NCBI GenBank assembly: GCA_000004985.1
Contig: GG738881.1
DNA: 64,000 nucleotides
From: Naegleria gruberi
Lineage: Eukaryota
Direction: 5' to 3' (one strand)
Part shown: in pieces, positions 117-54,455 of the stretch
How positions within the stretch are numbered: the stretch's first letter is position 1
Layout: every line of letters starts with the position of its first letter
The notes under the pieces: generated by a model
The model's input: only the letters and a program-made list of their open reading frames with translations
Told to the model about the DNA's origin: nothing
The model's database searches: none
Made by a program: the position numbers and the translations under genes

Positions 117-1094
117 TTAGAATTTATCATCAACAAGTGGAGTAATATTCTTGTAAGGTTGATTCTTGAAAAATTCGAGAATGAAATCGTCTGTATATCT
201 CAAACTGAAATGGGTCAAAATGAATCTAGTTTGTGGATGTTTCTCAATGTAAGGTTTGATGTGATTCCAGTGCATGTGATAAGCTCCCAAAGCTGTTTCT
301 TCTTGTCCATTTTCTAAGAAGGTACATTCCACAACAATGACTGGAAATTCCAATAAGAATGGATTCATTTCAAAGACACGATAAGTAGTATCTCCCATAA
401 TTGCAATTCTTGGTTCTAGAATGATATCAGAAATTTCATCACCTTTTTCTTTTCTCAATTTGGCAATTTCAGCTCCCTTGAGCTCTGAATATTCTTTTTT
501 CAGTTTTTTCTTTCTTTCGTAAATGGCATACCCATTACAAGGCACACTATGATCACACTTTACAACTTTGGCCACATAATTATCCTTTCCACCAATTTTC
601 TCAATCAAATCTCCAGGTTCCACACCAATGATATCAATTGGTTTTCTTTCCTGAACACTTTCTCTTGGCAATGTCTTTCCAGCATTCAATTCCTGACAAC
701 TATGCAAAAAGTTCTCTACAAATTCCACCTTTCCCTTTGGTACATAAACTCTATTAGGATTTGATCTATTTACAAAAGCAGGTTGACAAGCAGCCAAATA
801 AAACGTATGATCCGCATGTGTATGAGTAATCAGAAAAGTATTAGGATTTTGACTCATATACTTTTTATCAATAAATCCCATATCGATATTACATGAGAGT
901 TGGGGAATTTGAAAGTAGGTAGCCTCCGCACTCTTTGAATGCCCAACGAAAGATAGGGCTGGATAGGAAGATGATTTTTTATGTTCCGATGATGATGATG
1001 ATGATTGTGGTGGTGGAGATGATGATGATGATTGATCGGAAGCATCTTCTGATGAACCTGTTGGTAATTCATAAATATTCGGAATGACTTTCAT
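117..1094 (-). CDS. Metallo-beta-lactamase-fold hydrolase with a Ser-rich N-terminal low-complexity region. The likely start is the MKVIPNIY methionine, because the upstream part of the track ORF looks like UTR.
   Basis: The HxHxDH motif (ITHTHADHTF) of the MBL superfamily is present. It is a single uninterrupted ORF. A (GAT)n-encoded SSSSSPPPQSSSSSS tract is present. Confidence 0.55.
   Translation of the reverse strand: MKVIPNIYELPTGSSEDASDQSSSSSPPPQSSSSSSEHKKSSSYPALSFVGHSKSAEATYFQIPQLSCNIDMGFIDKKYMSQNPNTFLITHTHADHTFYLAACQPAFVNRSNPNRVYVPKGKVEFVENFLHSCQELNAGKTLPRESVQERKPIDIIGVEPGDLIEKIGGKDNYVAKVVKCDHSVPCNGYAIYERKKKLKKEYSELKGAEIAKLRKEKGDEISDIILEPRIAIMGDTTYRVFEMNPFLLEFPVIVVECTFLENGQEETALGAYHMHWNHIKPYIEKHPQTRFILTHFSLRYTDDFILEFFKNQPYKNITPLVDDKF
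977..1037. repeat. (GAT/GGT)n trinucleotide microsatellite inside the MBL-fold CDS. It encodes a Ser-rich tract on the coding strand and His-rich or Asp-rich strings in the other frames.
   Basis: The run gatgatgatgatgattgtggtggtggagatgatgatgatgat is directly visible. Confidence 0.6.
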
Positions 1095-1400
1095 GATGAA
1101 AAGTACTTTGTTTGATTTTTTTTGATTTTGAAAAATTAATTTAATATTTTTGAAATTGAAGAAAAGCAATTTTGAAATTGAGGTTGAAATTGAGGTTAAA
1201 GTTCAGATTTGAAAATTATAAATTAAATTTGTTTCATGTGAGTAAGATGATGAAATTTAAGGTTCATGAAATTAAAATACCAATATGGAAGGTTGACAGG
1301 ATGCATTGTAATAGTTTCGAATACAAATTGAAACGAAAAAGAAACCTTTCCAGCTCATTAGCTTCATATTTGGCAACAAACAAAATATCACTCCAAAAAA

Positions 1401-2093
1401 ATGTTTAAACATTCCCTCCTTGCAATCCTTGCATTACTTTGCTTTACACATGTCTTTTCAACTGTGGCCACCTTCAATTTTCTATTCGAAAGACATGAAT
1501 CCATGAAGAGATCAACACTTCAAACAACAACCACTACTACATGCTGCCAACCAAATGTCTTCTCCCTAAAAGGCATCTTAAATCAAGTTGCCATTGGTAA
1601 AAACGCAACTTTACAACCACTCACCGGAACCATTCAATTATTCGCAGATTACAATCTTGGAAGAATTAGACAAGATGCAACATTCTCTGCCAATGGAATG
1701 AACTCGTCCATTTCTAGTTATGCATTCAAACTTTCTGAAAATCTTGCTGTCAAGTATGATATTCGTGGCGAGGGCAATTGTGCATGTCATCAGATTTCGT
1801 CCACTCATGATTTTCAGCCAATGTGTGTCCTTTCGTCCAATCAAATAAGAAAGGCAAAAATTGGAAAATATAATGCAAAGAATGTTATCTATAATGTAAT
1901 GGGAATGAATGCTAATATTTGGGTTTTTTATGAGAATCCAGACGAAAGTGAAAAGTGTTGGATTTTGAGTTCGTATTTCCCAGATTCGTTTTCTCTTCAG
2001 GAAATTGTGTATTATGATCAAGTTGAGAAGGTTGACCAAAATGTTTTTAAGGTTCCTAGTTATTGTCCAAAGATTGAACAATGTTCTGATTGA
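1401..2093 (+). CDS. Hypothetical secreted Cys-containing protein with an N-terminal signal peptide.
   Basis: It has an ATG start and the hydrophobic N-terminus MFKHSLLAILALLCFTHVFS. The ORF is 230 aa with no recognisable domain. Confidence 0.4.
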   Translation: MFKHSLLAILALLCFTHVFSTVATFNFLFERHESMKRSTLQTTTTTTCCQPNVFSLKGILNQVAIGKNATLQPLTGTIQLFADYNLGRIRQDATFSANGMNSSISSYAFKLSENLAVKYDIRGEGNCACHQISSTHDFQPMCVLSSNQIRKAKIGKYNAKNVIYNVMGMNANIWVFYENPDESEKCWILSSYFPDSFSLQEIVYYDQVEKVDQNVFKVPSYCPKIEQCSD

Positions 2094-2125
2094 GAATATT
2101 TCAGTTTCGAATAAAAATTTATTGC

Positions 2126-3280
2126 TCAATTGAAATTATCCCAAAATTCCATTGTTGATTTTTCCTTAAATACAAAAGGAATTTCCAAAAATCCTCTAAT
2201 CATTTTCAATAAATCAATTCCAACCAAAAGTCCGATCATTCCCGCTAATTCCCCAAGTAATCCCTCAATTGAGTTTGTGTAAACTTCCTCAATTTGAGTT
2301 GTACTGAGAGAGTTGTAAGTTACTGAAATAGTTAGTGAAGTTTCGTCTGCATTATACGTTCTGAGAACTGTCTTTTCAGAATTCCATTTTGTAGAATTGA
2401 GATTTGGATTATCAATTGTTGGTTTTAATCGAGTGGTGATGACTTTGGTCAACATGAAAAAGTTATCTAATGAGGGAAGGGCATAATTAGTTTCGGATAA
2501 TAAATCAGGAGTGGTTCCTTGCTCATGGAATGAAACAATGAATCCCATTTTGACTTTTTTAGAACTGATTTCAGTTGGAGTTGGAGCATTCAATCCGAAA
2601 AAACTGTTTCGAATAATAGACAAGAAATCAAAAGAAATTGACATGAAATTCAAACTATTGTATATTACTTACAATGTTCTAATTCCATTATATCCAATCA
2701 ATGACGATTTCATTAAATTAGCACTCGAACTATCCGAAATATTATTAAAAACATAACAATGATACTTGTTTCCTCCCTGTTCAATTTCCTTATAATAAAC
2801 CTGGTCAGAATTGTAATTATTCGAAGATTGAAAATCAACAGCTCCATCAAATCGAAGGGCACAAGCATTACAATCAGAAGGACCTGCATTCCAATTACAA
2901 ACTCTATTCGAATCAGTTTCCAATAATTGTAAGAAAACAAATGAGCCAACTTACGTAACTGCTGGCAGGGTAAGGGAAGTTGCTGGAATCCAACTCATGG
3001 TTGTGGTTGGCTTGGACATGGCCTCAACATAACTCATCGATTGTCTAATGGTGTAATAGACCATGAAACTCAACATGATGAACCAGCCAATCATGGTCAG
3101 GATGTGATACCATTTGAAGGGGAATTTCCAGCCACATAGCTCAACATGTTGGATTGGCTCATCTGGGTTGTCTTTGATTGGACTGACATCTTGTTTGTTG
3201 ATGGTGGCTCGTTCCTTATTTTCGGTTGATGTTGGGTTGGTTTCTTGCATTTCAATGGGAGTCACCGAATTGGTGGCCAT
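2126..3280 (-). CDS. ENaC/degenerin/ASIC-like (amiloride-sensitive Na+ channel family) paralog A, with three coding segments.
   Basis: Exon 1 (2955..3280) encodes TM1 and ends in LTLPAVT, which with the first residues of exon 2 (ICNWN) gives the ENaC post-TM1 signature FPAVTIC. Exon 2 is 2673..2903 and exon 3 is 2126..about 2564-2654. The C-terminal segment encodes IEGLLGELAGMIGLLVGIDLL, matching the ASIC pre-TM2/TM2 consensus LLGDIGGQMGLFIGASIL. Introns 2904..2954 and 2655..2672 have gtaagt donors and ag acceptors. The exon 2/3 junction is ambiguous between an 18-nt micro-intron and acceptors at 2603 or 2564. Confidence 0.55.
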
Positions 3281-3507
3281 TTTTTTATGATCTTTAGTAT
3301 AACAGTTTGGCGGTAATTTACTACAATTTTTGATTCTTTCTTACTTGAGCTAGTACATCATTCGGGATGGCTTTTTATTAACGAAAGTCTTCAAACTGAT
3401 ACAGTTACTTCAAAACACAAAATATCAAGGCATATGTAAATTCAAAGAATTAATTGAAATTATCCCACAACTCCATAGTTGACTTTTCTCTAAATATCAA
3501 AGGTATC

Positions 3508-4668
3508 TCAAGCAAACCTCTTATAGTCTTTAAAATATCTATTCCCATAAGCAATCCCAGCATGCCTATTTGAAAAAAGTGAGATGCTCATAATACAATG
3601 TTTGAGAAGTAACATACCTGCAAGTTCTCCCAATAATCCTTCAATTGAAACTGTCAATACTTCTTCAATATGATTAACATTTAGGGTGCCATAAGTAACA
3701 GCGACTGTTAGGGATGTATTACTACTAACTGTTGACATTAGAACAGTGTTTTTGGAAGCCCATTCAGTAGTTTCCAGATTTTGATGTTCAACTGAAGGAT
3801 TTAACCTTTTAGTAACTTGTTTTGTTAGGATATAAAAGTTATCCAATCCAGGTTGGGCATAGTTGGTTTCAGAAAGAATGTTTGGAGTTGTTCCAGGCTC
3901 ATGGAATGATACTGTAAAACCCATTCTTTTGATATTGGCCTTGATTTCCTTTTCGTTTGGTTCTCTCAGGGAAAAATCGCTAACATATGAGCTTCTACTA
4001 ACAGAATAATCGTCAATTACTTACAACCTTCGCATTCCAGAATAACCAGTAAGCCATGATTTGAATACTTTGGTGCTATCTGTGATATTATTAAACACAT
4101 AGCAGTGATAATTTCTTCCACCTTGAACTATTTCTTTGTAATAATATTGATCATCAGTATACGGGGTGATCGATTCTTGACCGTCTTCCCTAGTCATGGT
4201 AAATTGAATTTTACTATCTTTATGACCTACCTTTGAAAATCCAAACACCCACTATAATAGATCCAACATGCATCACAATCAGAGGGACCTGCATTCCAAT
4301 TGCATACTCTAATTTTGAATTCCTATATTCAATTTCAATTGGAATTTAACTTACGTGATGGCTGGTAAGGCTAGTTTTAAAGTTGATTCCCAAGACATCG
4401 AAGTGGTTGGCTTTCCCAATGCCTCACTATAACTCATCGCCTGCCTAATAATATAATAAATCATAAATCCAATCATGATAACCCATCCAATCATGGTCAG
4501 TAGATGAAACCACTTGAACGGAAACTTCCATCCTCCAATTTTTACACTATTTCTTCTTTCCTCTTCGTCTTCGGCTGTTGTTGTTGGCTTCATAGAAGCT
4601 GCAGCAGAACCTCCTGCTTCCTTCTCTTGCATTTCAATTGGGCTAACGGAGGTTTTACTCATTTTCAC
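3508..4668 (-). CDS. ENaC/degenerin/ASIC-like paralog B.
   Basis: Exons are 4355..4668 (ending LALPAIT), 4231..4308, 4025..4213 and 3508..3925. The NYHCYVFNN block is conserved with paralog A. The C-terminus carries the GLLGELAGM motif. A 17-nt gtaggt..atag segment (4214..4230) must be removed to keep the frame. The other introns are 46 and 99 nt. Confidence 0.55.
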
Positions 4669-4720
4669 TTTTTTTTTAAGATTGAAGTGAACCTTAATAA
4701 CAGATCTTAAGCGTTATTTT

Positions 4721-4734
4721 TTTTGGCGCCAAAA
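4721..4734. promoter_or_regulatory. Palindromic E2F-type site TTTTGGCGCCAAAA in the divergent promoter between ENaC-like paralogs B and C.
   Basis: It is a perfect TTTGGCGCCAAA palindrome, which is the canonical high-affinity E2F/DP site. It lies 53 bp upstream of the paralog B start and 110 bp upstream of the paralog C start. Confidence 0.3.
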
Positions 4735-4843
4735 TACAAGTTCATCCAATTACGAAAAAAATATAACAACAAACTAACAAAACCATCATTTGATTTTGTG
4801 AGGAGAGAACTAAGTAGCAGATCGGAAGATAGTTGTTTGAAAA

Positions 4844-5803
4844 ATGATGGCAGCACCTGAAAAACAATTTAATTGGAGAATTATAAAACATGTACTAGTA
4901 CTCTTGTTTTGGTTCATCAATACTGGTGTTTTTGCATATTATATTTATTCACAGGCAGTTTCATTTATCAAGACTGAACAATCTCCTGTGACTTCAACTT
5001 CCTATTCATATGAAGATCCATTGAACTATCCGACTATAACAATTTGTGATTGGAGTAGAGAATCATCATTTGCGGCTACTTGTCCTGTTTGTACATTTGA
5101 ATACATTTCGTGTTATTGGTATAATTATGCAGATGACACAAATAATCCAGTGGCTTGCCCTCTAACATTTACCTTTTTTAAGGATGGTCAATCTTGCTTT
5201 GAGGCAAATGCAGATATAAGCAAATTGCTGACTGCCAAGAAAAAAGGATATCTAGGATCAATCAACATGTTATTTAGAATTCCTATCAATTATACTGATC
5301 CACTTCTTAGTGCTTACAGACTTGGAGCTTCTATCACTTTTAGAGAGCCAGGAACTCTACTGGGAAGCATATTTGCTGAAACTAATTATGCCATTCCAGG
5401 TCGATATAATTTATTTTCAATCAAAAAGGTGGTCTACGAGAAATTGCCTAAACCTCAGACCACCTCTATTGATGAGATTCCTTTACCAACAACAGATTCT
5501 TCAACAAAAACAATTTCATACGAGGCAACCTATTCAGCCCTCAAACGAGTGAAAACTGCAGACATGACAGACAATGATTATCTGGAGCAAATTGAGGTGG
5601 CATTCACATATGAAGAGTTAAAGACAACAACAATTACAGAAATTCAACAAAAAGATGGTTGGAGTTTGTTTGGAGAAGTTGCTGGAATGGCTGGGTTATT
5701 GCTTGGATTGGATATTTTGAAATCGTTTAGACTTTTCCTAATGTTTCCTCGTCTTTTCTTCAGACAAACCTCACTTGGAAAAATTTGGGAAGCTATGAAT
5801 TAA
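4844..5803 (+). CDS. ENaC/degenerin/ASIC-like paralog C, single exon, 319 aa.
   Basis: An N-terminal TM helix is followed by NYPTITICDWS, matching the ENaC FPAVTIC motif. FREPGTLLGSIFAETNYAIPG aligns with paralogs A and B. The C-terminus carries GEVAGMAGLLLGLDILK, the TM2 motif. Confidence 0.6.
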   Translation: MMAAPEKQFNWRIIKHVLVLLFWFINTGVFAYYIYSQAVSFIKTEQSPVTSTSYSYEDPLNYPTITICDWSRESSFAATCPVCTFEYISCYWYNYADDTNNPVACPLTFTFFKDGQSCFEANADISKLLTAKKKGYLGSINMLFRIPINYTDPLLSAYRLGASITFREPGTLLGSIFAETNYAIPGRYNLFSIKKVVYEKLPKPQTTSIDEIPLPTTDSSTKTISYEATYSALKRVKTADMTDNDYLEQIEVAFTYEELKTTTITEIQQKDGWSLFGEVAGMAGLLLGLDILKSFRLFLMFPRLFFRQTSLGKIWEAMN

Positions 5804-16920: not shown

Positions 16921-19900
16921 ATGTCTAACATGAATATTTCCCAAGACGATGATCGAGAGGATGAATTTTTAAGCTCCATGAGAACGTGGAATACAGACTC
17001 CACCAATACAGGACAGCTAGTTGATGATCCTTTTCTCTCAATGCAAGGAAGCGATAGTAATATTATGGTTTCAGTAAGATTGAGACCAGAAAGCGCTAAA
17101 GAAAAAATTGAGAGAAAAACTAGTACAACTGTTCGTGTTCTAGATAAGAATGTACTTGTTTTTGACCCTGTAGATACATCACAGGACCTTCACCAACGAA
17201 GAGCTCTAGGTTTGAGACGTGGAAAAGAATTAAGGTTTGCATTCGATAGAGTTTTCGATGATACATCAACACAATTAGAAGTTTATCAAAGTACAGCAAA
17301 GGCACTTTTGGAAAGTGTCTTGGAAGGATATAATGCCACCGTGTTTGCATACGGAGCTACTGGTGCTGGTAAGTTGAAAGATATTATTTTATAATTTACC
17401 TTATTACAGGTAAGACATTCACCATGTTTGGCTCGGAAATTAGTGGACCTGGTGTTCTACCTCTTACAATAATTGATATCTTTAGAATGATGGAACAAAA
17501 ACATGACAAGACTTACCGAGTGGCAATATCCTTCTTGGAGGTTTACAATGAAAATATTCACGATTTACTAGTACCACATACTGGAAAGGCAATTAATCAC
17601 GAAATTAGAGAAGACAAAGTGAAAGGAATAATAGTTTCTGGACTTTCTGAACACGTTTGCGAAAATGCTGATCAAGCTTTGGAACTAATTCAACTAGGTA
17701 TTGCTAACAGAACTCAATATGGAACAGCTGCTAATGCTCAATCTTCTAGGTCTCATGCTGTTTTTCAAATCAATGTTCAACAAACTGATAGAACAGCTAA
17801 TATTCAAGCAGATGTAGGAATTGGAAAATTATCATTAATTGACTTGGCAGGCTCAGAAAGAGCTTCGGTCACTAAGAATAGAGGTGCCAGACTTGTGGAA
17901 GGTGCAAATATTAACAAATCTCTGCTTGCCCTCTCGAACTGTATTAATGCACTTGGAAAAAACAAGGGAAAAGGTTATGTTCCATATCGTAACTCTAAGC
18001 TTACAAGACTTTTGAAAGACTCGTTGGGTGGTAATTGCAAAACAGTAATGATTGCAAATTTGAGTCCAAGTTACAGTTGTTATGACGATACATTCAATAC
18101 ACTCAAATATGCCAACAGAGCCAAGAGTATTAAGACAGTAGTCAAGAAGAATATCCACAATGTAAATTTCCATATTTCTAAATATCTGAAAATCATTGAT
18201 GAATTGAGGACAGAAATTAAAGAACTCAAGACACAAGCTCAAATCAAAGAACAAGAGGCTTCCTACATAGACTGTAAGAAGAATGAACAATACGAGAAGG
18301 AAAGGGATTCCACTGAGAAATTGAGAAGTCGTCTCTCTGAAGTTTTCCAAGAACAAATGCAAAATAGAAGAAAACTTCTTGAATTGGAAGAACAAGATAG
18401 ACAAAACTCTCTTCAAATAATGTCAATCAAGAATGATATTGAGCGATGGTCAAGAGAACATCCAAATGAAGAGAAACCATTACGTATTCATACTAGACAA
18501 AAGGATGCTGATACGCTCATAATTGCAAAGAGGGAATATGTTTCCAATAAGGAAGAAATTGAAAAGCGTCTTCAAGATAACATTTCATACACCAAGTCCT
18601 TACAAGATAATATTCCAAAAATGGTTTCCAATAATGAGTTGCGTCAATTAGTGGATCTTCAAGTTAAGGTACATGACCAAGAGATACTCAATCTTGATTT
18701 AGAGAGAATGATCGAACACCACAAATCCAAAGTACAGAGAATGTCACTTATCTTGGAAGATAATCAATATTGCTCTGTAAAGGTATTGGAATATGTACAG
18801 GATATGTATGATCGTCTTAGAGAGACTAACAGTTTAAATCCAGATATTGAAAAATCCTACTCTATGTGTACCACTCTCCTGGACGCTATTGAAAAACAAT
18901 CAACTCTTGATCATGTAAATAATGCCCAATCCCAACAAAATTCACAATCACAGCCACCACCAAACATTGAGACTGACTATGATTCAATGGTTGAAGAAGC
19001 TCTCAAAACTCCAAAATATTTACACAATGGTATCAAGAAAAAGAGAAGAAGCTCTCTTCAATTCTCATCACTCTTCCAACTCTCCTTCCCAAATAATCCA
19101 GAAGAAAGAACTGTTATCAAGCCATCAGAATTTGCTGCAAACAACTCGAAGCCAACCTCAAAAGGTATTAGAGCCAAACGTCCTAAAGACTCACGCCCTC
19201 CAAAGTCTCAATCTTCAGTCAAGTACAATAACTTTTTCTCTGAACCTATTGAAGGTGCCTCTTCTCAACAACAACCACAAATCGATTCCAACTCTGACAA
19301 GACTATTTCTCCTCAGCTATCTCCTCAAATGAGTAATCTTTCCCTCACTGATGCCATAGACAGTGGAGAAATGAATCCAAGCCTTACACCAGATGATGAT
19401 TTAATGATGGACGATGGACAGGAAGTTTTATTCCTCAAAAGACATACAGAGCCAAGAGATGAAGAAACCTATCAATCTCCAACCAAGAAAGGCATAGATA
19501 GCCTTGCACAACGCCACTTTTCTCCACTCAAAAAGGCTTCAGCAGAAGGTATTAATGCTCTCAAGGAAAAGTTTGAAAAATTCAGAACTGACTATATGGA
19601 AGCAAAGAGTGGTGAGGTTAAAACTAGGGTTCGTGTAAAGAAGATTAATCTTTCGCCAACCAGAGAAACTCAACCTCCTCTCTCACCAAATCAACTGAAA
19701 GGTGCTAGAGCTAGAAAATATGATGACTCTAATCCTGAAAAACCTCAAAAGCCAAAGAGTAAGAAGGTTAAATTTGAAGCAACAATAGGTGATTCTCCTT
19801 CTTCCCCTAAACCAGTTCCTGGATATATGGCCTATACTCAATCAGCCCAGCATCGTATTGGAGCAACGACAGCTTCTAAGAAGAAACCACTAGTTCCACC

Positions 19901-23452: not shown

Positions 23453-24931
23453 ATGCCTCGAATTCTTAGCTTCCGTGAGGTGATCAGGAATGATATCGAT
23501 TATGCCTACCATTCCAGCACGACCTTCATCGATACAACCTACAGAAAATCGAATAAATTCATCTCCGATGGCGTTAAACAATTGAAAAACAATTGGAAGA
23601 TGAGAAAGCAAAATAGAGCAGAGAAGGAAATTCATCAGAAAACAAAGGCTTTCGAAAGCGAAAAGTATGCTGAAAAGTTGAGAAAGACAATGCCTAGTTA
23701 TGAAGGTTATGATCCGTATGCTAACTTGGGAGCTGGAGAAAGAATTCCTCATGATGCCTTAGTTTTTGTGCAGAAATCAATTATTGAGTTTTATAGGAAG
23801 GAGTTTGAAAAGTCACTTGATGATTTAAAGATTGCAAAGGTTTTGGATTTTAAATTGGATAATGTTTATTTGTATCATTACTTGGTTGGATATATGAGAT
23901 TTTTGAATGGAAAGTTTGCTAAGTCAATTGAGAGTTATAAGAGAGCTATTGAGTTGATGGATAATGTAGCGTTGGATGATTCAGAGTTGATTGGTTCTGT
24001 AGAAAAAGCAATTGTTGAAATAGAAGACAAGATGAAGCATACCTATGACAAGATCATGGACTATTTCAGTAAGGAGAAATCTACAAAGAAAGAATCGATT
24101 GTTAGCAGGGAAGAGCTTCACTATTGTATTGGTGTGTCATATTTTAGTGTTTCTTATTATAGGGATGCTATTAATCACCTCTCTGAGGCCATTTCTAGTA
24201 TGGAACTCTTGGAAAGAAATCAGGATCTTGATACTTTACTTCATCTTGCTTATTATTATAGAGGATATTCCAATTTTGGTAGTCATTCATTCACAACTGC
24301 TATCGAGGATTTTACAAAGAGTTTAGAGTTCAACAATCAAGACGAGAGAGCTAAACTAATGTTGAATAATTCAATGCAGAGAATGGGAGAAGAGCCAAAT
24401 CAAATTTGCCTTGCACCACCACCAACTGCGTTCCACTATAGATTGTTGAATGAGGAAATAATGGGTCATATCTTTAGCTATTTGAGAATTCACAGCCTTA
24501 GGACTCTCTCAATGACCTGTAAATATTGGAAAATTTTATCCATGAAGAGTTTACTTGATAGAGATTTGTGCATTTTACAATATGAGGAGTTTGTTAAGGA
24601 TCCTGACAATACTTTGAAATATGCAAATGAAAGTTCACTTACGGAAAAGCTCTTCATGCCAAAAAAATACCAATGTGAAATCTACACATTAATATATTAT
24701 GTATTGGAATCACCATTTTTCAAACACTACAAGAAGAAACAACGTGATATACATGTCATGTTTCCAAATTTTATTTGTGCTGTTGGTGGTGCTAATAGTT
24801 ATGTTTCGTACTTTTTTGGAAATTGTAAGAAATTGTACCTTTCCTGCATTACGTTTACTTCTATTTCCTACTATTATAATTCTTTTACTGAAAAGAAATA
24901 TCCAGTTGAGGAATTATTCATCATCAAGTAA
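23453..24931 (+). CDS. TPR-like / F-box-like hypothetical protein. A short 3' exon (about 25028..25264) may follow a gtaagt donor at 24930.
   Basis: It has an ATG start. TPR-like repeats are present (SIESYKRAIELMDN, AINHLSEAISSMEL). An F-box-like segment is present (MGHIFSYLRIHSLRTLSMTCKYWKIL). The ORF ends ...IIK immediately before gtaagt. Confidence 0.4.
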   Translation: MPRILSFREVIRNDIDYAYHSSTTFIDTTYRKSNKFISDGVKQLKNNWKMRKQNRAEKEIHQKTKAFESEKYAEKLRKTMPSYEGYDPYANLGAGERIPHDALVFVQKSIIEFYRKEFEKSLDDLKIAKVLDFKLDNVYLYHYLVGYMRFLNGKFAKSIESYKRAIELMDNVALDDSELIGSVEKAIVEIEDKMKHTYDKIMDYFSKEKSTKKESIVSREELHYCIGVSYFSVSYYRDAINHLSEAISSMELLERNQDLDTLLHLAYYYRGYSNFGSHSFTTAIEDFTKSLEFNNQDERAKLMLNNSMQRMGEEPNQICLAPPPTAFHYRLLNEEIMGHIFSYLRIHSLRTLSMTCKYWKILSMKSLLDRDLCILQYEEFVKDPDNTLKYANESSLTEKLFMPKKYQCEIYTLIYYVLESPFFKHYKKKQRDIHVMFPNFICAVGGANSYVSYFFGNCKKLYLSCITFTSISYYYNSFTEKKYPVEELFIIK

Positions 24932-25722
24932 GTTATCTCACCACACAATTCATACCCAATTTATTCAAGTCATACTAACTTCCAATTTGAGGAGAAGCAA
25001 TTTGCTTTTTTTAATACTTATCCAAATTTGAAACACGTTGCATTTGATATCAGGTCTCAAGATATTAAGCGAGATTTGTATAATCCATATTCTGTTAAGC
25101 TCTCACAAACAATAGATACATTCGAATACAGTGAATCATGTGAAGATTATATGAGAACTTTTGTTATTCCATTTAACTCACACATAACTTTCATAGCCTT
25201 TGAGAAAGGTAGAAAGGTTCCTCTTCCTTCGCCTTTTCTTGAAGAGTACCAAAGTTATTGAATACTCAAACGAAAATGTGTACGTTGTAATTGGTAAAAA
25301 GTAAAAAGGAAGTGGGAGCAATCAAGCACTTTCAGCACTTGATTAGACAGCAACCACCCTTATTCCACTTCCCCGAAAAGATCCGGTTATTGCAGCATGG
25401 TTACTCATGTATCGTTAGCATATTCTGGCGAGTTGAAGAGAAACGTGATTGGAAATAAGAAACTTGTGGTTTTAAAAATAAAATTTTAGAAATATCCATT
25501 CTGGAATGGACTTGTGTTGAATGGACACGCACAGAATGAGGCAACACAATGTTATTCATGTTTAAACTCTGTTAGTCCATAGGTTTTGGACTATTATCAA
25601 ACCGAAATTGAGTGGAAAAGATTGAAAGAGCTATTGATGAGAATGATTATATAAACGGTTCACGATTAGAGCAATATCTTTGAAATTGTAATAAATTCTC
25701 TGGTAATTTACAGTACCATTAT

Positions 25723-28358: not shown

Positions 28359-31300
28359 ATGAGCGAAATACATACAGAAACGACAGACTCTTCTGGTACC
28401 TCTAAGAGTACCTTCTCGAATAATATGAGGGAAAAGTTTGGAACGTGGATAATGTTGATGAGGAAGGGAAATCCCTCATTGAGCAAACTCTGGTTCATTA
28501 CCAATTTACTGGTAGAAATATACATGTTGTGGTGCGCCATGTTCATACCGACCCTTAAAGATTATAAGTGGGGTTTATATGGGAACTATGTATTTTGGGC
28601 AGCTAACTTTCCCATTGGCTTTCTATTGGACTGGCTTAGCTATTACGATTCAGTAGTAGTAACAATTATATTCTATCTTTTTCTAATAATGTGCTACGCG
28701 ATATTGGCAGTGGCTACATGGAGCAAAGCAAGAGGAAAAAAACATGGACACATCTTTTCGAAAATTCTCACAGTCCTCATGCTCATGTGTCGATTATTCT
28801 TCCCTGCTATTCTGTTTAATATTGTTGGATACTTTGACTGCTCAACAAGTTCTATGATTCCACTGACAGATTTATATTCCCTTAATAGATTTCCAACAGT
28901 GGCATGTGTGGACACACTTAATAGTATTCTGATTTTAATCTCGGTATTTTATTGTATTCTATTGTACATTTTCCTATTGTTATCTGAAATATTAACAATA
29001 GATCTTCATCCAAAGAGTAATAATTTATTCACACGTAATTCATATTGGACGAGTATTGCTATGAGAACAAGTTCATTTGTTGCTATTTTGGTAATGTTTA
29101 CGATTCCAAAAGAGTATGCATTCATCTCAGCAATTGTAAATATTATAACATCAACACTGGTAATGATTAAAACAGTGAGAGGTATACCATTCTATAGAAC
29201 CTATATCAATTCATTAATGTTTGGAGTATCATGTGGATGCATTACAAGCTCATGTGGAACTTTGTTGGCTTTCCTAGTCAATAATTCAGATATGGGAGGA
29301 GATGTATTCAACTACATTGGAATTGGGGTTTCGGGTTTAACGATATTATTGACCATGTTGAGTTTAATTGTTGGATTTGCAGGATTTGAGATTTATCTGC
29401 GGATGATTAGAAAGTGGCTCCTCAAAGAAATTATCAAGCAAATAGATGTCCACAAGAAATATCAAAAGCCAGAAGAAACTACAATAAGCGACAATTTCCT
29501 TCATGTAAATATTTCAGGATTGAAGAGGTCAACAGATGTTCAAGCAGCAGCAATGAGTGACGCAGGTTACAATCAATTTATTCAATATTTGAAAGACTCT
29601 CCTTTCAAGTACAAAAGACCAATACTCCTTCTCTTTCGATTGGATCTGATTAATGAGGAGGTTACTATTGAAAACGGAGAAGAAGAAATTAAACTTCACG
29701 ATATTGTTATGAGATTAGGGAAAGGTATCATTCAAAGAGGATATGAAGATCGCGAAATGTTAGAATCTGTTGCCATGATGTTTGCTTTTTGCCATCATGA
29801 ATCTCAATCATACCTGTCCATAGCCATTGAATTACTGGTTAAAAGTCACAGACATTCATCAATTTTCACACACGGCCTTAGCTCGATTAAAATTAAGGAA
29901 ATACAAAGTTTGGAAGAAGCAGCCAAATCTGATGGTATTGTATCACCTGGATATTTCAAAATCCAAACCATCAAGAAGAATCAAGAGATGATCACTGCTC
30001 TTCATAAGGATTTTTTCAAGGAATTATTAAATGATCCTATCAAGATTTCCAACCTCAAATCAATAATGAGGAAAACCAGTGAACTTTGTAGAACATGTGA
30101 AAATCTATTTAGAACATTGCTATTACATAGAAACAAGCGTATCCTTTATCTGTATGCTAGTTATGTGGAAATTGTGTACTTTGACAAGGAAACAGCCCNN
30201 NNNNNNNNNNNNNNNNNNNNNNNNNNNNNNNNNNNNNNNNNNNNNNNNATGACGATTCGGATGATCCTCTATTTGATGACAGCGTAAGCGTTGGTGGAGG
30301 AGCAGGCGAACTGAAAAAGGACTATTTGTTTAGAAATGCTTTGAAATCATCCAAACCAAAAATTGGAGCCAAATCTTTGCTAATAATTTTTATAGTATTG
30401 GGATTAGTAATGATTGCAACTGCCATTGGCTTTTCAGCTTATCATGGAATTGCAATTAAGAGCAACATTTTCAATTCGAGCATTGTTTGCATTCCACAAA
30501 TTATTTCTGCATCAGTTATCAAAAATATCAGATCAATGCAAAACTGGATCAATATATTTGTATTGTCTGGTTATGAATGGCCAACTGAAAGAAATGGATA
30601 CGAGATGCCTTCACCAAGTGTAAGTGATATTGTTAGTTGAACATACATATGTTAACATTGTTATCAGATATATTTGAGAAATTTCACAGATAGTATTGAG
30701 ACTTCAATTTTCAATATCAGAGAGTTGATAGCATTGGGACAATCTCTTGTGTTTGATGTTTCAACATTAACTTCATACGGTAAATCTATGCATTCATTCA
30801 AAATTCCAAGCGTGAATGGAACTGACGGATTCAATACAAAACAATACATTGGAGAACCAGAAATCAGAAAAGTATCCGTTGTTGAAATTTCTAACTTATT
30901 GATTCAATACATGGACAAACACATGGCTCAATTCCCAGAAACTGACATCTTGAATTATTTCAATTCCACAAGTGAGGCAACAAAAGTAGAAATTCAACAA
31001 AATTTGAAGAATTCAACATTCATGAATCCAGTTAAAGATTATGATTTTATGTTATTATGGCTTAACACACCAATAGCTTCACAAGCATATAAGGATTTTT
31101 GTATTGATTTTGTTGAATTGAGCTCTGATAGTGTTGCCTCACTTCAATATCAATCTCAATATTTCTTCCTTTGTGTTTTAGTATCCTATATTACATTTGG
31201 ATTATGCACGGCTATATATATCATTGTAGAGTTGAGATATATTGATAGATTGATAAAATTATTTGAGAAGGAAATTGGAAAGGATGTTATTGGAAAGATT

Positions 31301-35364: not shown

Positions 35365-36926
35365 TTACTCAATGTTAGCAGAGATACTGAGATCAGCTTG
35401 AGTCAAACCCATGTTACCGTTACCAAACAAATTGTGTGGGTCAATCTTTTGCTTGAGACCCTTCAAGATGTCAACACCTTGATCTCTGACAACTTCATTC
35501 ATCCATTCTCTTCTGAGCTTACCAATACCGTGGTGGTGAGACAAACTTCCTCCTTGGAGCAAGATTTCATCTCTGGCTTCAGATTCAATTTCAGAGAAGA
35601 CCTTAATTGGATCACTCAATCCTCTAAAGATGAAACCATAATAGAAGTAGACACAAGCACCAGTTTCATAAGTTTGAGTAACACGAGCAGAAACCCAAGG
35701 AACTGATGGAACACCCTTCTTCTTGGCAGATTCCTTAACTCTTTCTTCAACCTTCTTAATCATTGGAACAATGTTAGACCATGGAACAGAGGTTTCAAAG
35801 CTTTCGGCCATAAAGTAATAATTGAAACCATAATCTCTCAAATAAGCAATAACATAGGTAAGCAAATATCCTCTAGAACCAGCTTCAGCACCAGCCTTAA
35901 GACCACCATACTTGGAAGTAATATCATAAATAATCTTTTGTTGTCTATCAACTTCTTCTTGAGTACCTTCAAAGAGCAATGTGACAACACACATCTTTTC
36001 TGGATCAAAACCACAGACCNNNNNNNNNNNNNNNNNNNNNNNNNNNNNNNNNNNNNNNNNNNNNNNNNNNNNNNNNNNNNNNNNNNNNNNNNNNNNNNNN
36101 NNNNNNNNNNNNNNNNNNNNNNNNNNNNNNNNNNNNNNNNNNNNNNNNNNNNNNNNNNNNNNNNNNNNTCGTGACCAAGAGTCAAATTAAACTTATCCTT
36201 AAGTTCCTTTTGTAATTCAATACCAATAGCACCAGCTTCAATAACAGCAGTATTGGATTCAAAATCAACACTCAAAATACGATCCATTTCTTGAGTATCA
36301 ATAGAAACAATCATTCTCTTTTCATTTTCTGGACAGAGCAAAGCTTGAGTGACGTTAGTACCACCACCATATGGAATAATTGTTAATTGTTCAGGATATT
36401 TAGTAGCAATAGAAACAATCTTTTCAACATGATCGTGTGAATCTGGATAGATGACAACGTCAACAAGTCTCTTGAATTTTCCGTATCTGAGTTGATAAAT
36501 TTCTTGACAACAGTGACCATGGGAGTGCATCAAACGGACTTCATCATCAAAAGACAAATACTTGAAGCAATTAGCTTGTTTAAGTTCATCAACGAATGAT
36601 TTACAAATTACTGGCTTGTGGATCTTTTGTTGCATCTCAGGCCAAGATTGAGCAGGAGAAGCATATCTAGTGTCCAAACCAGTAAAGTTTTCAAACCATG
36701 GACGGAAATCAGGAATACATTTACCAGATAAAACATAACGATCACCAGTAACATAAACGTCCTTCTTTTCATCCATAGTAAAATCGGTATCCTTGTATCC
36801 CCATCCGTTCCACTTGGCCAATTTTTGTCTCTTGTTTGGAATACCAGTACCCATCTTTTCCTTGGACATTGTCAATAGAGTAGGAGAAGTTGGAACGCCA
36901 CCAGCGCAAACATTAGAAGACACCAT
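35365..36926 (-). CDS. Alkyl-dihydroxyacetonephosphate synthase (AGPS; FAD-linked oxidase family), interrupted by a 149-N gap.
   Basis: The N-terminal part contains KWNGWGYKD, the AGPS signature, and the FAD-binding PCMH-type region IIPYGGGTNVTQAL. The C-terminal part (35365..35994) contains HHHGIGKLRREWM, the FAD-oxidase C-terminal motif. The frame is not continuous across the gap, consistent with a gap of unknown length. Confidence 0.75.
36020..36168. other. Assembly gap (149 N) inside the AGPS gene.
   Basis: Run of N. Confidence 0.95.
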
Positions 36927-42408: not shown

Positions 42409-43406
42409 NNNNNNNNNNNNNNNNNNNNNNNNNNNNNNNNNNNNNNNNNNNNNNNNNNNNNNNNNNNNNNNNNNNNNNNNNNNNNNNNNNNNNNNNNNNN
42501 NNNNNNNNNNNNNNNNNNNNNNNNNNNNNNNNNNNNNNNNNNNNNNNNNNNNNNNNNNNNNNNNNNNNNNNNNNNNNNNNNNNNNNNNNNNNNNNNNNNN
42601 NNNNNNNNNNNNNNNNNNNNNNNNNNNNNNNNNNNNNNNNNNNNNNNNNNNNNNNNNNNNNNNNNNNNNNNNNNNNNNNNNNNNNNNNNNNNNNNNNNNN
42701 NNNNNNNNNNNNNNNNNNNNNNNNNNNNNNNNNNNNNNNNNNNNNNNNNNNNNNNNNNNNNNNNNNNNNNNNNNNNNNNNNNNNNNNNNNNNNNNNNNNN
42801 NNNNNNNNNNNNNNNNNNNNNNNNNNNNNNNNNNNNNNNNNNNNNNNNNNNNNNNNNNNNNNNNNNNNNNNNNNNNNNNNNNNNNNNNNNNNNNNNNNNN
42901 NNNNNNNNNNNNNNNNNNNNNNNNNNNNNNNNNNNNNNNNNNNNNNNNNNNNNNNNNNNNNNNNNNNNNNNNNNNNNNNNNNNNNNNNNNNNNNNNNNNN
43001 NNNNNNNNNNNNNNNNNNNNNNNNNNNNNNNNNNNNNNNNNNNNNNNNNNNNNNNNNNNNNNNNNNNNNNNNNNNNNNNNNNNNNNNNNNNNNNNNNNNN
43101 NNNNNNNNNNNNNNNNNNNNNNNNNNNNNNNNNNNNNNNNNNNNNNNNNNNNNNNNNNNNNNNNNNNNNNNNNNNNNNNNNNNNNNNNNNNNNNNNNNNN
43201 NNNNNNNNNNNNNNNNNNNNNNNNNNNNNNNNNNNNNNNNNNNNNNNNNNNNNNNNNNNNNNNNNNNNNNNNNNNNNNNNNNNNNNNNNNNNNNNNNNNN
43301 NNNNNNNNNNNNNNNNNNNNNNNNNNNNNNNNNNNNNNNNNNNNNNNNNNNNNNNNNNNNNNNNNNNNNNNNNNNNNNNNNNNNNNNNNNNNNNNNNNNN
43401 NNNNNN
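42409..43406. other. Assembly gap (998 N).
   Basis: Run of N. Confidence 0.95.
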
Positions 43407-54100: not shown

Positions 54101-54455
54101 NNNNNNNNNNNNNNNNNNNNNNNNNNNNNNNNNNNNNNNNNNNNNNNNNNNNNNNNNNNNNNNNNNNNNNNNNNNNNNNNNNNNNNNNNNNNNNNNNNNN
54201 NNNNNNNNNNNNNNNNNNNNNNNNNNNNNNNNNNNNNNNNNNNNNNNNNNNNNNNNNNNNNNNNNNNNNNNNNNNNNNNNNNNNNNNNNNNNNNNNNNNN
54301 NNNNNNNNNNNNNNNNNNNNNNNNNNNNNNNNNNNNNNNNNNNNNNNNNNNNNNNNNNNNNNNNNNNNNNNNNNNNNNNNNNNNNNNNNNNNNNNNNNNN
54401 NNNNNNNNNNNNNNNNNNNNNNNNNNNNNNNNNNNNNNNNNNNNNNNNNNNNNNN
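45137..54455. other. Assembly gap (9319 N), probably a collapsed repeat region upstream of the Cys-rich repeat gene.
   Basis: This is a run of N. The flanking sequence at 54456 onward is a high-identity tandem repeat. Confidence 0.9.

What the first reader, a model, noticed from the sequence alone, without database searches (positions are those of the whole stretch)
2655..2672. 17-18 nt GT..AG micro-intron-like segments in ENaC-like paralogs A and B (a second instance is at 4214-4230)
In paralog A the reading frame is interrupted by a TAA that sits inside the 18-mer gtaagtaatatacaatag. In paralog B a frame shift is bridged by the 17-mer gtaggtcataaagatag. Both have consensus donors and a tag acceptor, and removing each one restores a long open frame. 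All other introns in the window are 44 nt or longer. Such short introns are below the usual spliceosomal minimum. So either this organism tolerates ultrashort introns, or a longer intron using a downstream acceptor is used (candidates exist in A at 2603 and 2564), or these copies are decaying pseudogenes.
Basis: seen in the sequence. Interest (0 to 1): 0.5.

Follow-up and report, generated by a model that had tools for sequence, protein, structure and literature searches.

The report
Chance mini GT-AG inside ordinary introns
The two 17-18 base "micro-introns" are most likely just the first bases of ordinary 69- and 41-base introns in two sodium-channel-like genes of the amoeba Naegleria gruberi, so nothing unusual about splicing is needed.

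Summary
The window is Naegleria gruberi NEG-M.

Paralog A: the micro-intron reading is refuted.
- A 69-nt intron (2672..2604) uses the same GTAAGT donor and an AACAG acceptor. It gives exactly the RefSeq protein XP_002674946.1.
- That model is gap-free against paralog B, against intronless paralog C, and against an intronless metagenomic homologue.
- A 98%-identical environmental allele has lost the micro-acceptor AG. It also carries a 12-nt insertion there, yet keeps the donor and the AACAG acceptor.
- A family HMM favours the 69-nt model by 15.5 bits.

Paralog B: the evidence is indirect.
- The frame break is real. An independent contig carries it unchanged.
- A 41-nt intron (4230..4190) uses the same GTAGGT donor. 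It is favoured by loop length in the family (49 aa, against a range of 40-51) and by 5.7 bits in the HMM.
- The window has another validated 41-nt intron, which rebuilds a kinesin P-loop.
- A frame-shifted pseudogene, or true 17-nt splicing, is not excluded without RNA data.

Nested frame-preserving AGs arise in about 29% of shuffled introns. Interest is low.

The parts
2126..3280 (-). Paralog A, a DEG/ENaC-like gene (NAEGRDRAFT_69901). Exons 3280-2955, 2903-2673 and 2603-2126; product 344 aa.
   Evidence: The spliced translation is identical to XP_002674946.1 / EFC42202.1 / D2VLU3. Pfam ASC E=1.6e-13.
2904..2954 (-). A intron 1, 51 nt, GTAAGT...AATAG, phase 2, after ...LPAVT.
   Evidence: It carries 3 substitutions in 51 nt in allele L002.
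2604..2672 (-). A intron 2, the real intron: 69 nt, GTAAGT...AACAG, phase 2.
   Evidence: It gives the annotated protein exactly. It is gap-free against B and C. The GY.G-to-SFH spacing is 26 aa, the same as intronless P0008. Both boundaries are conserved in L002, where the intron is 81 nt. The HMM favours it by 15.5 bits over the 18-nt model.
2655..2672 (-). The flagged 18-mer GTAAGTAATATACAATAG. It is the 5' end of A intron 2; its AATAG is a chance internal AG.
   Evidence: In allele L002 this stretch has 4 substitutions, including the G of the AG at 2655, plus a 12-nt insertion next to it. No AG remains in that allele's intron apart from the one inside the GTAAGT donor and the terminal AACAG.
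3448..4662 (-). Paralog B, a DEG/ENaC-like gene. Best model: exons 4662-4355, 4308-4231, 4189-4025, 3979-3618 and 3565-3448; product 342 aa.
   Evidence: model. Pfam ASC E=2.7e-14. 55.6% identical to A. Highest family-HMM score of the B models tested, 304.1 bits.
4309..4354 (-). B intron 1, 46 nt, GTAAGT...ATTAG. Same position and phase as A intron 1.
4190..4230 (-). B intron 2, best-supported model: 41 nt, GTAGGT...ACTAG. B-specific, in a variable extracellular loop after ...LDFQ.
   Evidence: It restores the frame. The CNWN-to-C..FNN spacing is 49 aa, inside the family range of 40-51. The HMM favours it by 5.7 bits over the 17-nt model and 7.6 bits over read-through. A 41-nt intron is validated elsewhere in the window. 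No transcript evidence was available.
4214..4230 (-). The flagged 17-mer GTAGGTCATAAAGATAG. It is probably the 5' end of B intron 2; its GATAG would be an internal AG upstream of the branch point.
   Evidence: The sequence is confirmed and is identical in independent contig L003. The 17-nt model gives a loop of 57 aa, matched by only one of about 45 homologues.
3980..4024 (-). B intron 3, 45 nt, GTAAGTAAT...GTTAG. Homologous in position and phase to A intron 2. It has nested in-frame AGs at 27, 30 and 33 nt that are not used.
   Evidence: The 45-nt model is gap-free against A_69 and C. Nested options are listed. The 27-nt model loses 8.4 bits.
3566..3617 (-). B intron 4, 52 nt, GTATGT...AATAG. 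B-specific, inside the second transmembrane segment (GELAG|MLG).
   Evidence: gap-free against A and C after removal.
4847..5803 (+). Paralog C, an intronless DEG/ENaC-like gene. It serves as an intron-free ruler for A and B.
   Evidence: The ORF is. P0040 (318 aa) is the same protein starting at the second ATG. Pfam ASC.
17369..17409 (+). Reference 41-nt intron in a kinesin gene. It shows that 41 nt is a working intron length in this genome.
   Evidence: Splicing joins [14 protein letters not shown]. Pfam Kinesin then matches as one stretch covering 1-327 of 327 profile positions, E=7e-113.

Best explanation
Neither flagged segment is an ultrashort intron. Each is the first 17-18 bases of an ordinary short spliceosomal intron of Naegleria gruberi, and each happens to contain an internal, frame-compatible TAG.

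In paralog A the intron runs from the GTAAGT donor at 2672 to the AACAG acceptor at 2604 (69 nt). In paralog B it most likely runs from the GTAGGT donor at 4230 to the ACTAG acceptor at 4190 (41 nt).

The internal AGs lie 17-18 nt from the donor. That would place them upstream of the branch point, where the spliceosome does not choose a 3' splice site. This mechanistic step is inferred, not shown.

Both genes then encode full-length two-transmembrane DEG/ENaC-like proteins that are colinear with their homologues.

Shown: exon/intron coordinates for A, the reality of the frame break in B, and use of 41-nt introns in this genome.
Inferred: the acceptor used in B, and the branch-point positions.
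For: Organism: four window ORFs or models are exact matches to N. gruberi RefSeq proteins.

Paralog A:
1. The 69-nt model is identical to XP_002674946.1.
2. The 18-nt model inserts 17 aa (LNFMSISFDFLSIIRNS) that are absent from B and from intronless C. It gives a GY.G-to-SFH spacing of 43 aa, against 16-26 aa in 35 homologues. The 69-nt model gives 26 aa, the same as P0008, which is encoded by an uninterrupted ORF.
3. Allele L002 (98% identical) lacks the micro-acceptor AG, has a 12-nt insertion next to the 18-mer, and has no AG in its 81-nt intron apart from the one inside the GTAAGT donor and the terminal one.
4. Ten of the 12 exon substitutions fall at codon position 3 (p=5e-4). Substitution density is higher in the two introns than in the exons (Fisher p=4.7e-4).
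5. Family HMM scores: 297.3 bits for the 69-nt model, 281.8 for the 18-nt model, 283.5 for the 108-nt model.

Paralog B:
1. The frame break is identical in the independently assembled contig L003, which has 6 substitutions and no indels over 1104 nt. It is therefore not an assembly error.
2. Conservation with A runs right up to the donor (VDFQ in A, LDFQ in B).
3. The 41-nt model gives a loop of 49 aa (family range 40-51). The 17-nt model gives 57 aa.
4. HMM scores: 304.1 bits (41 nt), 298.4 (17 nt), 296.5 (read-through).
5. A 41-nt intron is validated in the kinesin gene. In the window survey, the strong-donor introns with only one viable short solution are 41-52 nt.
6. Wherever a nested short acceptor can be tested (A intron 2, B intron 3), the longer intron is the right one.

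Literature: an N. fowleri transcriptome study set the minimum intron length to 30 bp, based on its predicted genes (PMC8296547).
Against: No transcript data could be examined. For B the choice of acceptor rests on homologue colinearity and on the length range of other introns.

The 5.7-bit HMM advantage is modest, and the loop concerned is variable in the family. One homologue, P0048, also has a 57-aa spacing.

The reference annotation of B could not be recovered. None of 22 candidate B models, including both the 41-nt and the 17-nt models, is an exact entry in the protein collection. The annotators' model therefore differs from mine somewhere.

The GTAGGT donor departs from the GTAAGT/GTATGT donors seen in the other introns.

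The B allele L003 is identical across this region. It gives no comparative information on which acceptor is used.
Confidence: 0.75

Rival explanations
1. Paralog B is a frame-shifted (decaying or recently disabled) copy. Nothing is spliced at 4230, and translation ends at the TAG two codons after ...DFQ.
For: B needs an extra, B-specific intron with a less common donor (GTAGGT). Its annotated model could not be matched by any of the 22 models I tried. Between the two alleles, the exon changes in B are 2 at codon position 2 and 2 at position 3, so there is no clear sign of purifying selection. B has five extracellular cysteines, one apparently unpaired.
Against: All other exons of B are open and all other splice sites are canonical. 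The break sits exactly at a good AG|GTAGGT donor, and an in-frame ACTAG acceptor lies 41 nt downstream. Read-through coding would require a loop about 10 aa longer than even the 17-nt model gives, and it scores lowest of the three options for this break (296.5 bits). B has another B-specific intron (intron 4) that is certainly an intron. Four substitutions give no statistical power.
Confidence: 0.14
2. The 17-nt segment in B is truly excised, either as the only intron or as an alternative 3' splice site to the 41-nt intron. The two differ by 24 nt, so both keep the frame.
For: It has GT...AG boundaries, and removing it restores the frame. A TCATA motif resembling the branch-like motifs of other introns lies 8-9 nt before its AG (my reading of the sequences). 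The resulting 57-aa loop is matched by one homologue.
Against: The shortest validated intron in the window is 41 nt. The analogous 18-nt candidate in A is demonstrably not used. The donor-to-branch distance would be about 9 nt. The HMM disfavours it by 5.7 bits. Nested in-frame AGs are common by chance.
Confidence: 0.04
3. B uses another donor/acceptor pair near the break, for example a weak donor at 4252, 4248 or 4246 with an acceptor at 4218, 4214, 4190 or 4185.
For: Many GT..AG pairs restore an open frame. The annotated model was not recovered, so it may use one of them.
Against: These donors (GTGGGT, GTGTTT, GTTTGG) are poor. They also delete residues conserved with A (G..DFQ). Twelve such models are not in the protein collection either.
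Confidence: 0.05
4. The 18-nt segment in A is a true micro-intron.
For: It has a consensus GTAAGT donor and a TAG acceptor, and removing it is in frame and eliminates the TAA.
Against: The acceptor is lost in allele L002, which retains the TAA and could then not be rescued. The model adds 17 aa found in no homologue. It scores 15.5 bits lower. The reference annotation uses the 69-nt intron.
Confidence: 0.01
5. The frame break in B is a sequencing or assembly indel error in the reference.
For: The window comes from a draft scaffold with several N gaps.
Against: The same sequence, base for base, across 4260-4170 is present in an independently assembled environmental contig that differs from the reference elsewhere (L003).
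Confidence: 0.01

Closest known systems
Ordinary short U2-type (GT-AG) spliceosomal introns of Naegleria gruberi, as in the reference annotation (XP_002674946.1 for paralog A)
   Same: GTAAGT-like donor, YAG acceptor, and a length of 41-69 nt as for the other introns in the window. Removal gives proteins colinear with their homologues. For A the model equals the annotated protein exactly.
   Different: Nothing for A. For B the acceptor is inferred, the donor is GTAGGT, and the intron is absent from A, from C and from intronless homologues.
Genome-wide ultrashort-intron systems: Stentor coeruleus 15-16 nt and the Bigelowiella natans nucleomorph 18-21 nt (both from my own knowledge); Paramecium and Nyctotherus around 25 bp (PMC5014332 abstract)
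   Same: The flagged segments are 17-18 nt with GT...AG ends.
   Different: In those organisms essentially the whole intron population is ultrashort. Here the validated and strong-donor introns are 41 nt or longer. The one testable micro-acceptor is not conserved even within the species.
Decoy or cryptic AG dinucleotides inside introns, upstream of the branch point (general splicing knowledge)
   Same: An AG inside a real intron that would be frame-compatible if used. Such AGs are common by chance (about 29% of shuffles) and are seen unused in B introns 3 and 4.
   Different: None identified. The branch-point positions themselves were not determined.
DEG/ENaC (amiloride-sensitive sodium channel, Pfam PF00858) family
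   Same: All three paralogs score above the Pfam gathering threshold. They have an N-terminal and a C-terminal hydrophobic segment flanking a Cys-containing extracellular domain.
   Different: They are short (about 320-345 aa) compared with the 455-position Pfam profile. They are protist proteins of untested function.

Membership tests
Functional spliceosomal intron of N. gruberi | GT donor and AG acceptor | tested here: met
   All candidates (18, 69, 17 and 41 nt) have GT...AG ends. This feature does not discriminate between them.
Functional spliceosomal intron of N. gruberi | Removal yields a product colinear with homologues, including intronless ones | tested here: not met
   18-nt model: 17 extra aa and a spacing of 43 aa against 16-26; 15.5 bits lower. 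17-nt model: spacing of 57 aa against 40-51; 5.7 bits lower. The 69-nt and 41-nt models do meet this feature.
Functional spliceosomal intron of N. gruberi | Splice sites conserved between alleles or strains while the interior evolves freely | tested here: not met
   The acceptor AG of the 18-mer is lost in L002, while the donor and the AACAG acceptor are kept. For B the two alleles are identical here, so this is uninformative.
Functional spliceosomal intron of N. gruberi | Length within the range of validated introns of the organism | tested here: not met
   17 and 18 nt lie far below the shortest validated intron in the window (41 nt). 41 and 69 nt are inside the range. Only one window was surveyed, not the whole genome.
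Functional spliceosomal intron of N. gruberi | Spliced transcripts showing the junction | not testable with these tools
   No RNA-seq or EST access. Data exist under PRJEB23822 (PMC6142364).
Ultrashort-intron genome (Stentor / nucleomorph / Paramecium type) | The intron length distribution of the genome peaks below about 30 nt | tested here: not met
   The window survey gives 41-89 nt for the first viable solution at strong donors. The reported mean intron length for N. gruberi is 203 bp (PMC8296547).
DEG/ENaC (PF00858 ASC) | Significant match to the family profile above the curated threshold | tested here: met
   A 50.9 bits, B 53.5 bits, C 32.2 bits, against a cutoff of 23.6.
DEG/ENaC (PF00858 ASC) | Channel activity or amiloride sensitivity | not testable with these tools
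   Functional assay needed.
Pseudogene (paralog B) | A frame disruption that cannot be bridged by canonical splice sites, and relaxed constraint | tested here: inconclusive
   The disruption can be bridged by a canonical 41-nt GT-AG intron. Only 4 exon substitutions separate the alleles (2 at position 2, 2 at position 3), which is too few to judge constraint.

The most novel reading that the evidence does not exclude
The 17-nt GTAGGTCATAAAGATAG in paralog B is really excised, alone or as an alternative 3' splice site to the 41-nt intron (both keep the frame and differ by 8 aa). This would make it by far the shortest spliceosomal intron known in a heterolobosean. It would also show that a spliceosome working on introns of 40 nt or more can handle a donor-to-branch distance of about 9 nt.
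Probability: 0.04. Interest if true: 0.6.

Novelty: not a real feature. Interest (0 to 1): 0.08.

Why it matters
If they were real, 17-18 nt introns in an organism whose other introns are 40 nt or longer would challenge ideas about the minimum spacing the spliceosome needs. The evidence shows the opposite. These are chance GT..AG pairs nested in ordinary introns, one of which is already correctly annotated in RefSeq.

The practical lesson is for sequence-only gene modelling in AT-rich genomes. The shortest frame-restoring GT..AG is often not the intron. About 29% of composition-matched introns contain such a decoy. Paralog or allele comparison resolves the question quickly.

Tried and rejected
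1. The search for homologous proteins with B returned nothing, although close fragments exist in the collection. These turned up later as P0031 and P0066, so that tool was not informative here.
2. I tried to recover the reference annotation of B by exact look-up of 22 alternative gene models. They varied intron 2 (17, 41 and 12 other donor/acceptor pairs), intron 3 (27, 30 or 45 nt), exon skipping, and an internal start. None is in the collection.
3. Exact look-ups of window ORFs of B (103, 105, 138 and 75 aa) found no contigs. The variant contig L003 was found only through the representative search.
4. A look-up of A's locus in the assembly collection failed, so other species' genomic orthologues could not be obtained that way.
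5. Scans of JGI metagenome contigs, with B as a protein query and with a degenerate CNWNAGPSDC DNA pattern, found no A/B-like loci.
6. I checked whether the introns are repeated (introner-like) elements. There are no other copies in the window.
7. The 108-nt alternative for A (acceptor at 2565) is rejected. It deletes 13 aa present in B, and it scores 13.8 bits lower than the 69-nt model.
8. The papers on Naegleria that I searched gave no explicit minimum intron length for N. gruberi. They gave only a mean of 203 bp, and a 30-bp aligner setting used for N. fowleri.

Full report
**What is there**

The window is AT-rich (about 34% G+C) eukaryotic DNA with compact genes. Four ORFs or gene models from it are exact matches to Naegleria gruberi NEG-M RefSeq/UniProt proteins, so the organism is N. 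gruberi.

Three DEG/ENaC-like paralogs lie side by side:
- A: minus strand, 3280..2126.
- B: minus strand, 4662..3448.
- C: plus strand, 4844..5803, with no introns.

All three match Pfam ASC (PF00858) above the gathering score. No further paralogs are in the window.

**The observation**

The two flagged strings are exactly as described. On the minus strand, 2672..2655 is GTAAGTAATATACAATAG and 4230..4214 is GTAGGTCATAAAGATAG. Deleting either gives an uninterrupted full-length reading frame.

**Paralog A: the 18-mer is the start of a 69-nt intron**

From the same GTAAGT donor there is an in-frame acceptor AACAG ending at 2604, giving a 69-nt intron. Five independent lines support it.

1. Annotation. 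The 69-nt model translates to a 344-aa protein identical, residue for residue, to XP_002674946.1 / EFC42202.1 / D2VLU3.
2. Colinearity with the paralogs. With the 69-nt intron, A aligns without any gap to B and to intronless C through this region. The 18-nt model inserts 17 residues (LNFMSISFDFLSIIRNS) that neither has.
3. Spacing in the wider family. A search of 1.84 billion representative proteins gave 91 family members. In 35 of them the spacing between the GY.G motif and the SFH motif is 16-26 aa. The 69-nt model gives 26 aa. That equals P0008, which is encoded by an uninterrupted 984-nt ORF on a metagenome contig. The 18-nt model gives 43 aa.
4. An allelic variant. An environmental contig (L002, ENA ERZ929261) is 98% identical to the A locus.
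   - Of its 12 exon differences, 10 are at third codon positions (p=5e-4).
   - The two introns carry 8 substitutions in 120 nt (Fisher p=4.7e-4 against the exons).
   - The 18-mer alone has 4 substitutions, including loss of the G of its AG acceptor. A 12-nt insertion sits right next to it.
   - In that allele the intron is 81 nt. Apart from the AG inside the GTAAGT donor, its only AG is the terminal AACAG. The TAA at the donor is retained, so the micro-intron could not rescue that allele.
5. Family HMM. A profile built from 45 homologues, with A and B excluded, scores the 69-nt model at 297.3 bits, the 18-nt model at 281.8 and the 108-nt alternative at 283.5.

The micro-intron reading for A is therefore refuted.

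**Paralog B: a real frame break, best bridged by a 41-nt intron**

B has three unambiguous introns:
- 46 nt (4354..4309), at the same site as A intron 1.
- 45 nt (4024..3980), at the same site and phase as A intron 2. It even shares the first nine bases, GTAAGTAAT.
- 52 nt (3617..3566), specific to B.

Each leaves B gap-free against A and C.

The fourth interruption is the frame shift at 4230. It is not an assembly artefact. An independently assembled contig (L003) covers 4741..3638 with 6 substitutions and no indels, and it is identical across the break.

Similarity to A runs right up to the GTAGGT donor (LDFQ in B, VDFQ in A). Donors further upstream would delete conserved residues.

From this donor two acceptors restore the frame without deleting the conserved YYKEI..GG..YHCYVFNN block: GATAG (17 nt) and ACTAG at 4190 (41 nt). 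Four observations favour 41 nt.
- Loop length. The spacing from CNWN to C..FNN is 40-51 aa in about 45 homologues, with one at 57. The 41-nt model gives 49 and the 17-nt model gives 57.
- HMM scores. 304.1 bits for 41 nt, 298.4 for 17 nt, and 296.5 for unspliced read-through with a corrected frame.
- Intron length. 41 nt is a working intron length in this genome. The intron at 17369-17409 is 41 nt, and its removal joins [14 protein letters not shown]. The Pfam Kinesin domain then matches as one stretch over the whole 327-position profile. In the window survey, strong-donor introns whose shortest viable solution is unambiguous measure 41-52 nt.
- Precedent. In both cases where a nested short acceptor can be tested (A intron 2, and B intron 3 with nested AGs at 27/30/33 nt), the longer intron is correct.

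**What remains open for B**

I could not see transcripts. I also could not recover the reference annotation of B: none of 22 candidate models, including both the 41-nt and the 17-nt models, is an exact entry in the protein collection. The two B alleles are identical around the break, so they say nothing about which acceptor is used. They differ by only four exon substitutions, which is too few to test constraint.

My probabilities for B are roughly:
- 41-nt intron: about 0.75.
- Frame-shifted pseudogene: about 0.14.
- Another donor/acceptor pair: about 0.05.
- True 17-nt splicing: about 0.04.

**Chance expectation**

I kept the donor hexamer and the last three bases fixed and shuffled the intron interior. 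About 29% of shuffles of either intron then contain a nested acceptor that preserves the frame and leaves no stop. One of 20 nt or less appears in 3% (A) and 9% (B) of shuffles. Two of the four other introns of these genes also have nested options. Finding two such cases while reading a 64-kb window is unremarkable.

**Mechanism**

The coordinates are shown; the following is inferred. The spliceosome pairs U1 with the GTAAGT or GTAGGT donor. U2 pairs with a branch site some 8-17 nt upstream of the true acceptor. YTNAY-like motifs occur at that distance in the window's introns, for example CTGAT, CTCAT, CTCAC and TTAAC (sequences). For B intron 2, TTCAA lies about 14 nt before ACTAG. An AG only 17-18 nt from the donor lies upstream of the branch point and is not scanned as a 3' splice site.

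**Comparison with known systems**

Genuine ultrashort introns are known where the whole intron population is ultrashort. Paramecium and Nyctotherus have introns of about 25 bp (PMC5014332). Stentor and the Bigelowiella nucleomorph are further examples (my own knowledge). N. gruberi is not such a genome. Its mean intron length is reported as 203 bp, and an N. fowleri study set a 30-bp minimum from its gene models (PMC8296547). In this window nothing validated is shorter than 41 nt.

**Verdict**

The micro-introns are decoy GT..AG pairs inside normal introns of (at least for A) already annotated genes.

Noticed in passing
window 2126-5803 (A 3280..2126 -, B 4662..3448 -, C 4844..5803 +): The three clustered DEG/ENaC-like paralogs differ in intron content. 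A has 2 introns, B has 4 (its introns 2 and 4 are absent from A, its closest relative at 55.6% identity), and C has none. The homologue P0008 (L004 1919-2902) is also intronless. Several metagenomic ORFs of the family start right at the ...TVCNWN position of intron 1. This suggests lineage-specific intron gain in B, or loss in A.
   Followed up: partly
window 17369-17409 (+): A 41-nt intron (GTAAGT...TTACAG) splits the P-loop of a kinesin gene. A 42-nt candidate (GTAAGT...TTCAAG) lies at 24928-24969 (+).
   Followed up: yes
L002 (= window 3345..1808), L003 (= window 4741..3638), L001 (= window 850..1827): One environmental assembly (ENA ERZ929261, run ERR1078381, project PRJEB11402) contains N. 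gruberi-like contigs. The A locus is 98.0% identical and the adjacent B locus 99.5%. L001 matches the neighbouring gene at only 92% with 9 gaps, then continues into different genes (a 574-aa ORF and RCC1/WD40_RLD-like ORFs). That points to a paralogous or rearranged locus, or a second strain.
   Followed up: partly
window 4308-4025 (-), B extracellular domain: B has five extracellular cysteines and A has four. The extra one (SGC, just before LDFQ) has a partner cysteine in homologues that carry it (for example P0013, P0016 and paralog C). No B model supplies a partner.
   Followed up: no
window 4844-4849 (+): Paralog C has two adjacent ATG codons. The database protein P0040 (318 aa) starts at the second. 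The 319-aa form starting at the first ATG is not in the collection.
   Followed up: partly
window 30199-30248, 36020-36168, 42409-43406, 45137-54455: Runs of N (50, 149, 998 and 9319 bases). The window is from a draft scaffold with gaps, which explains the zero or low G+C bins at 42-54 kb.
   Followed up: yes
P0010 (1563 aa): One family hit is a 1563-aa protein whose last 200 or so residues are the DEG/ENaC-like C-terminal half. They are preceded by long unrelated repeat and low-complexity regions. It lacks the CNWN...CYVFNN part, so it is probably a merged or mis-spliced gene model in another genome.
   Followed up: no
window 960-1050 (-), gene 117..1094: The 325-aa protein NAEGRDRAFT_50625 has an N-terminal Ser/Pro-rich stretch (encoded by a GATGAT-rich repeat on the plus strand) ahead of an HxHxDH-containing region. 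It has no bearing on the finding.
   Followed up: no
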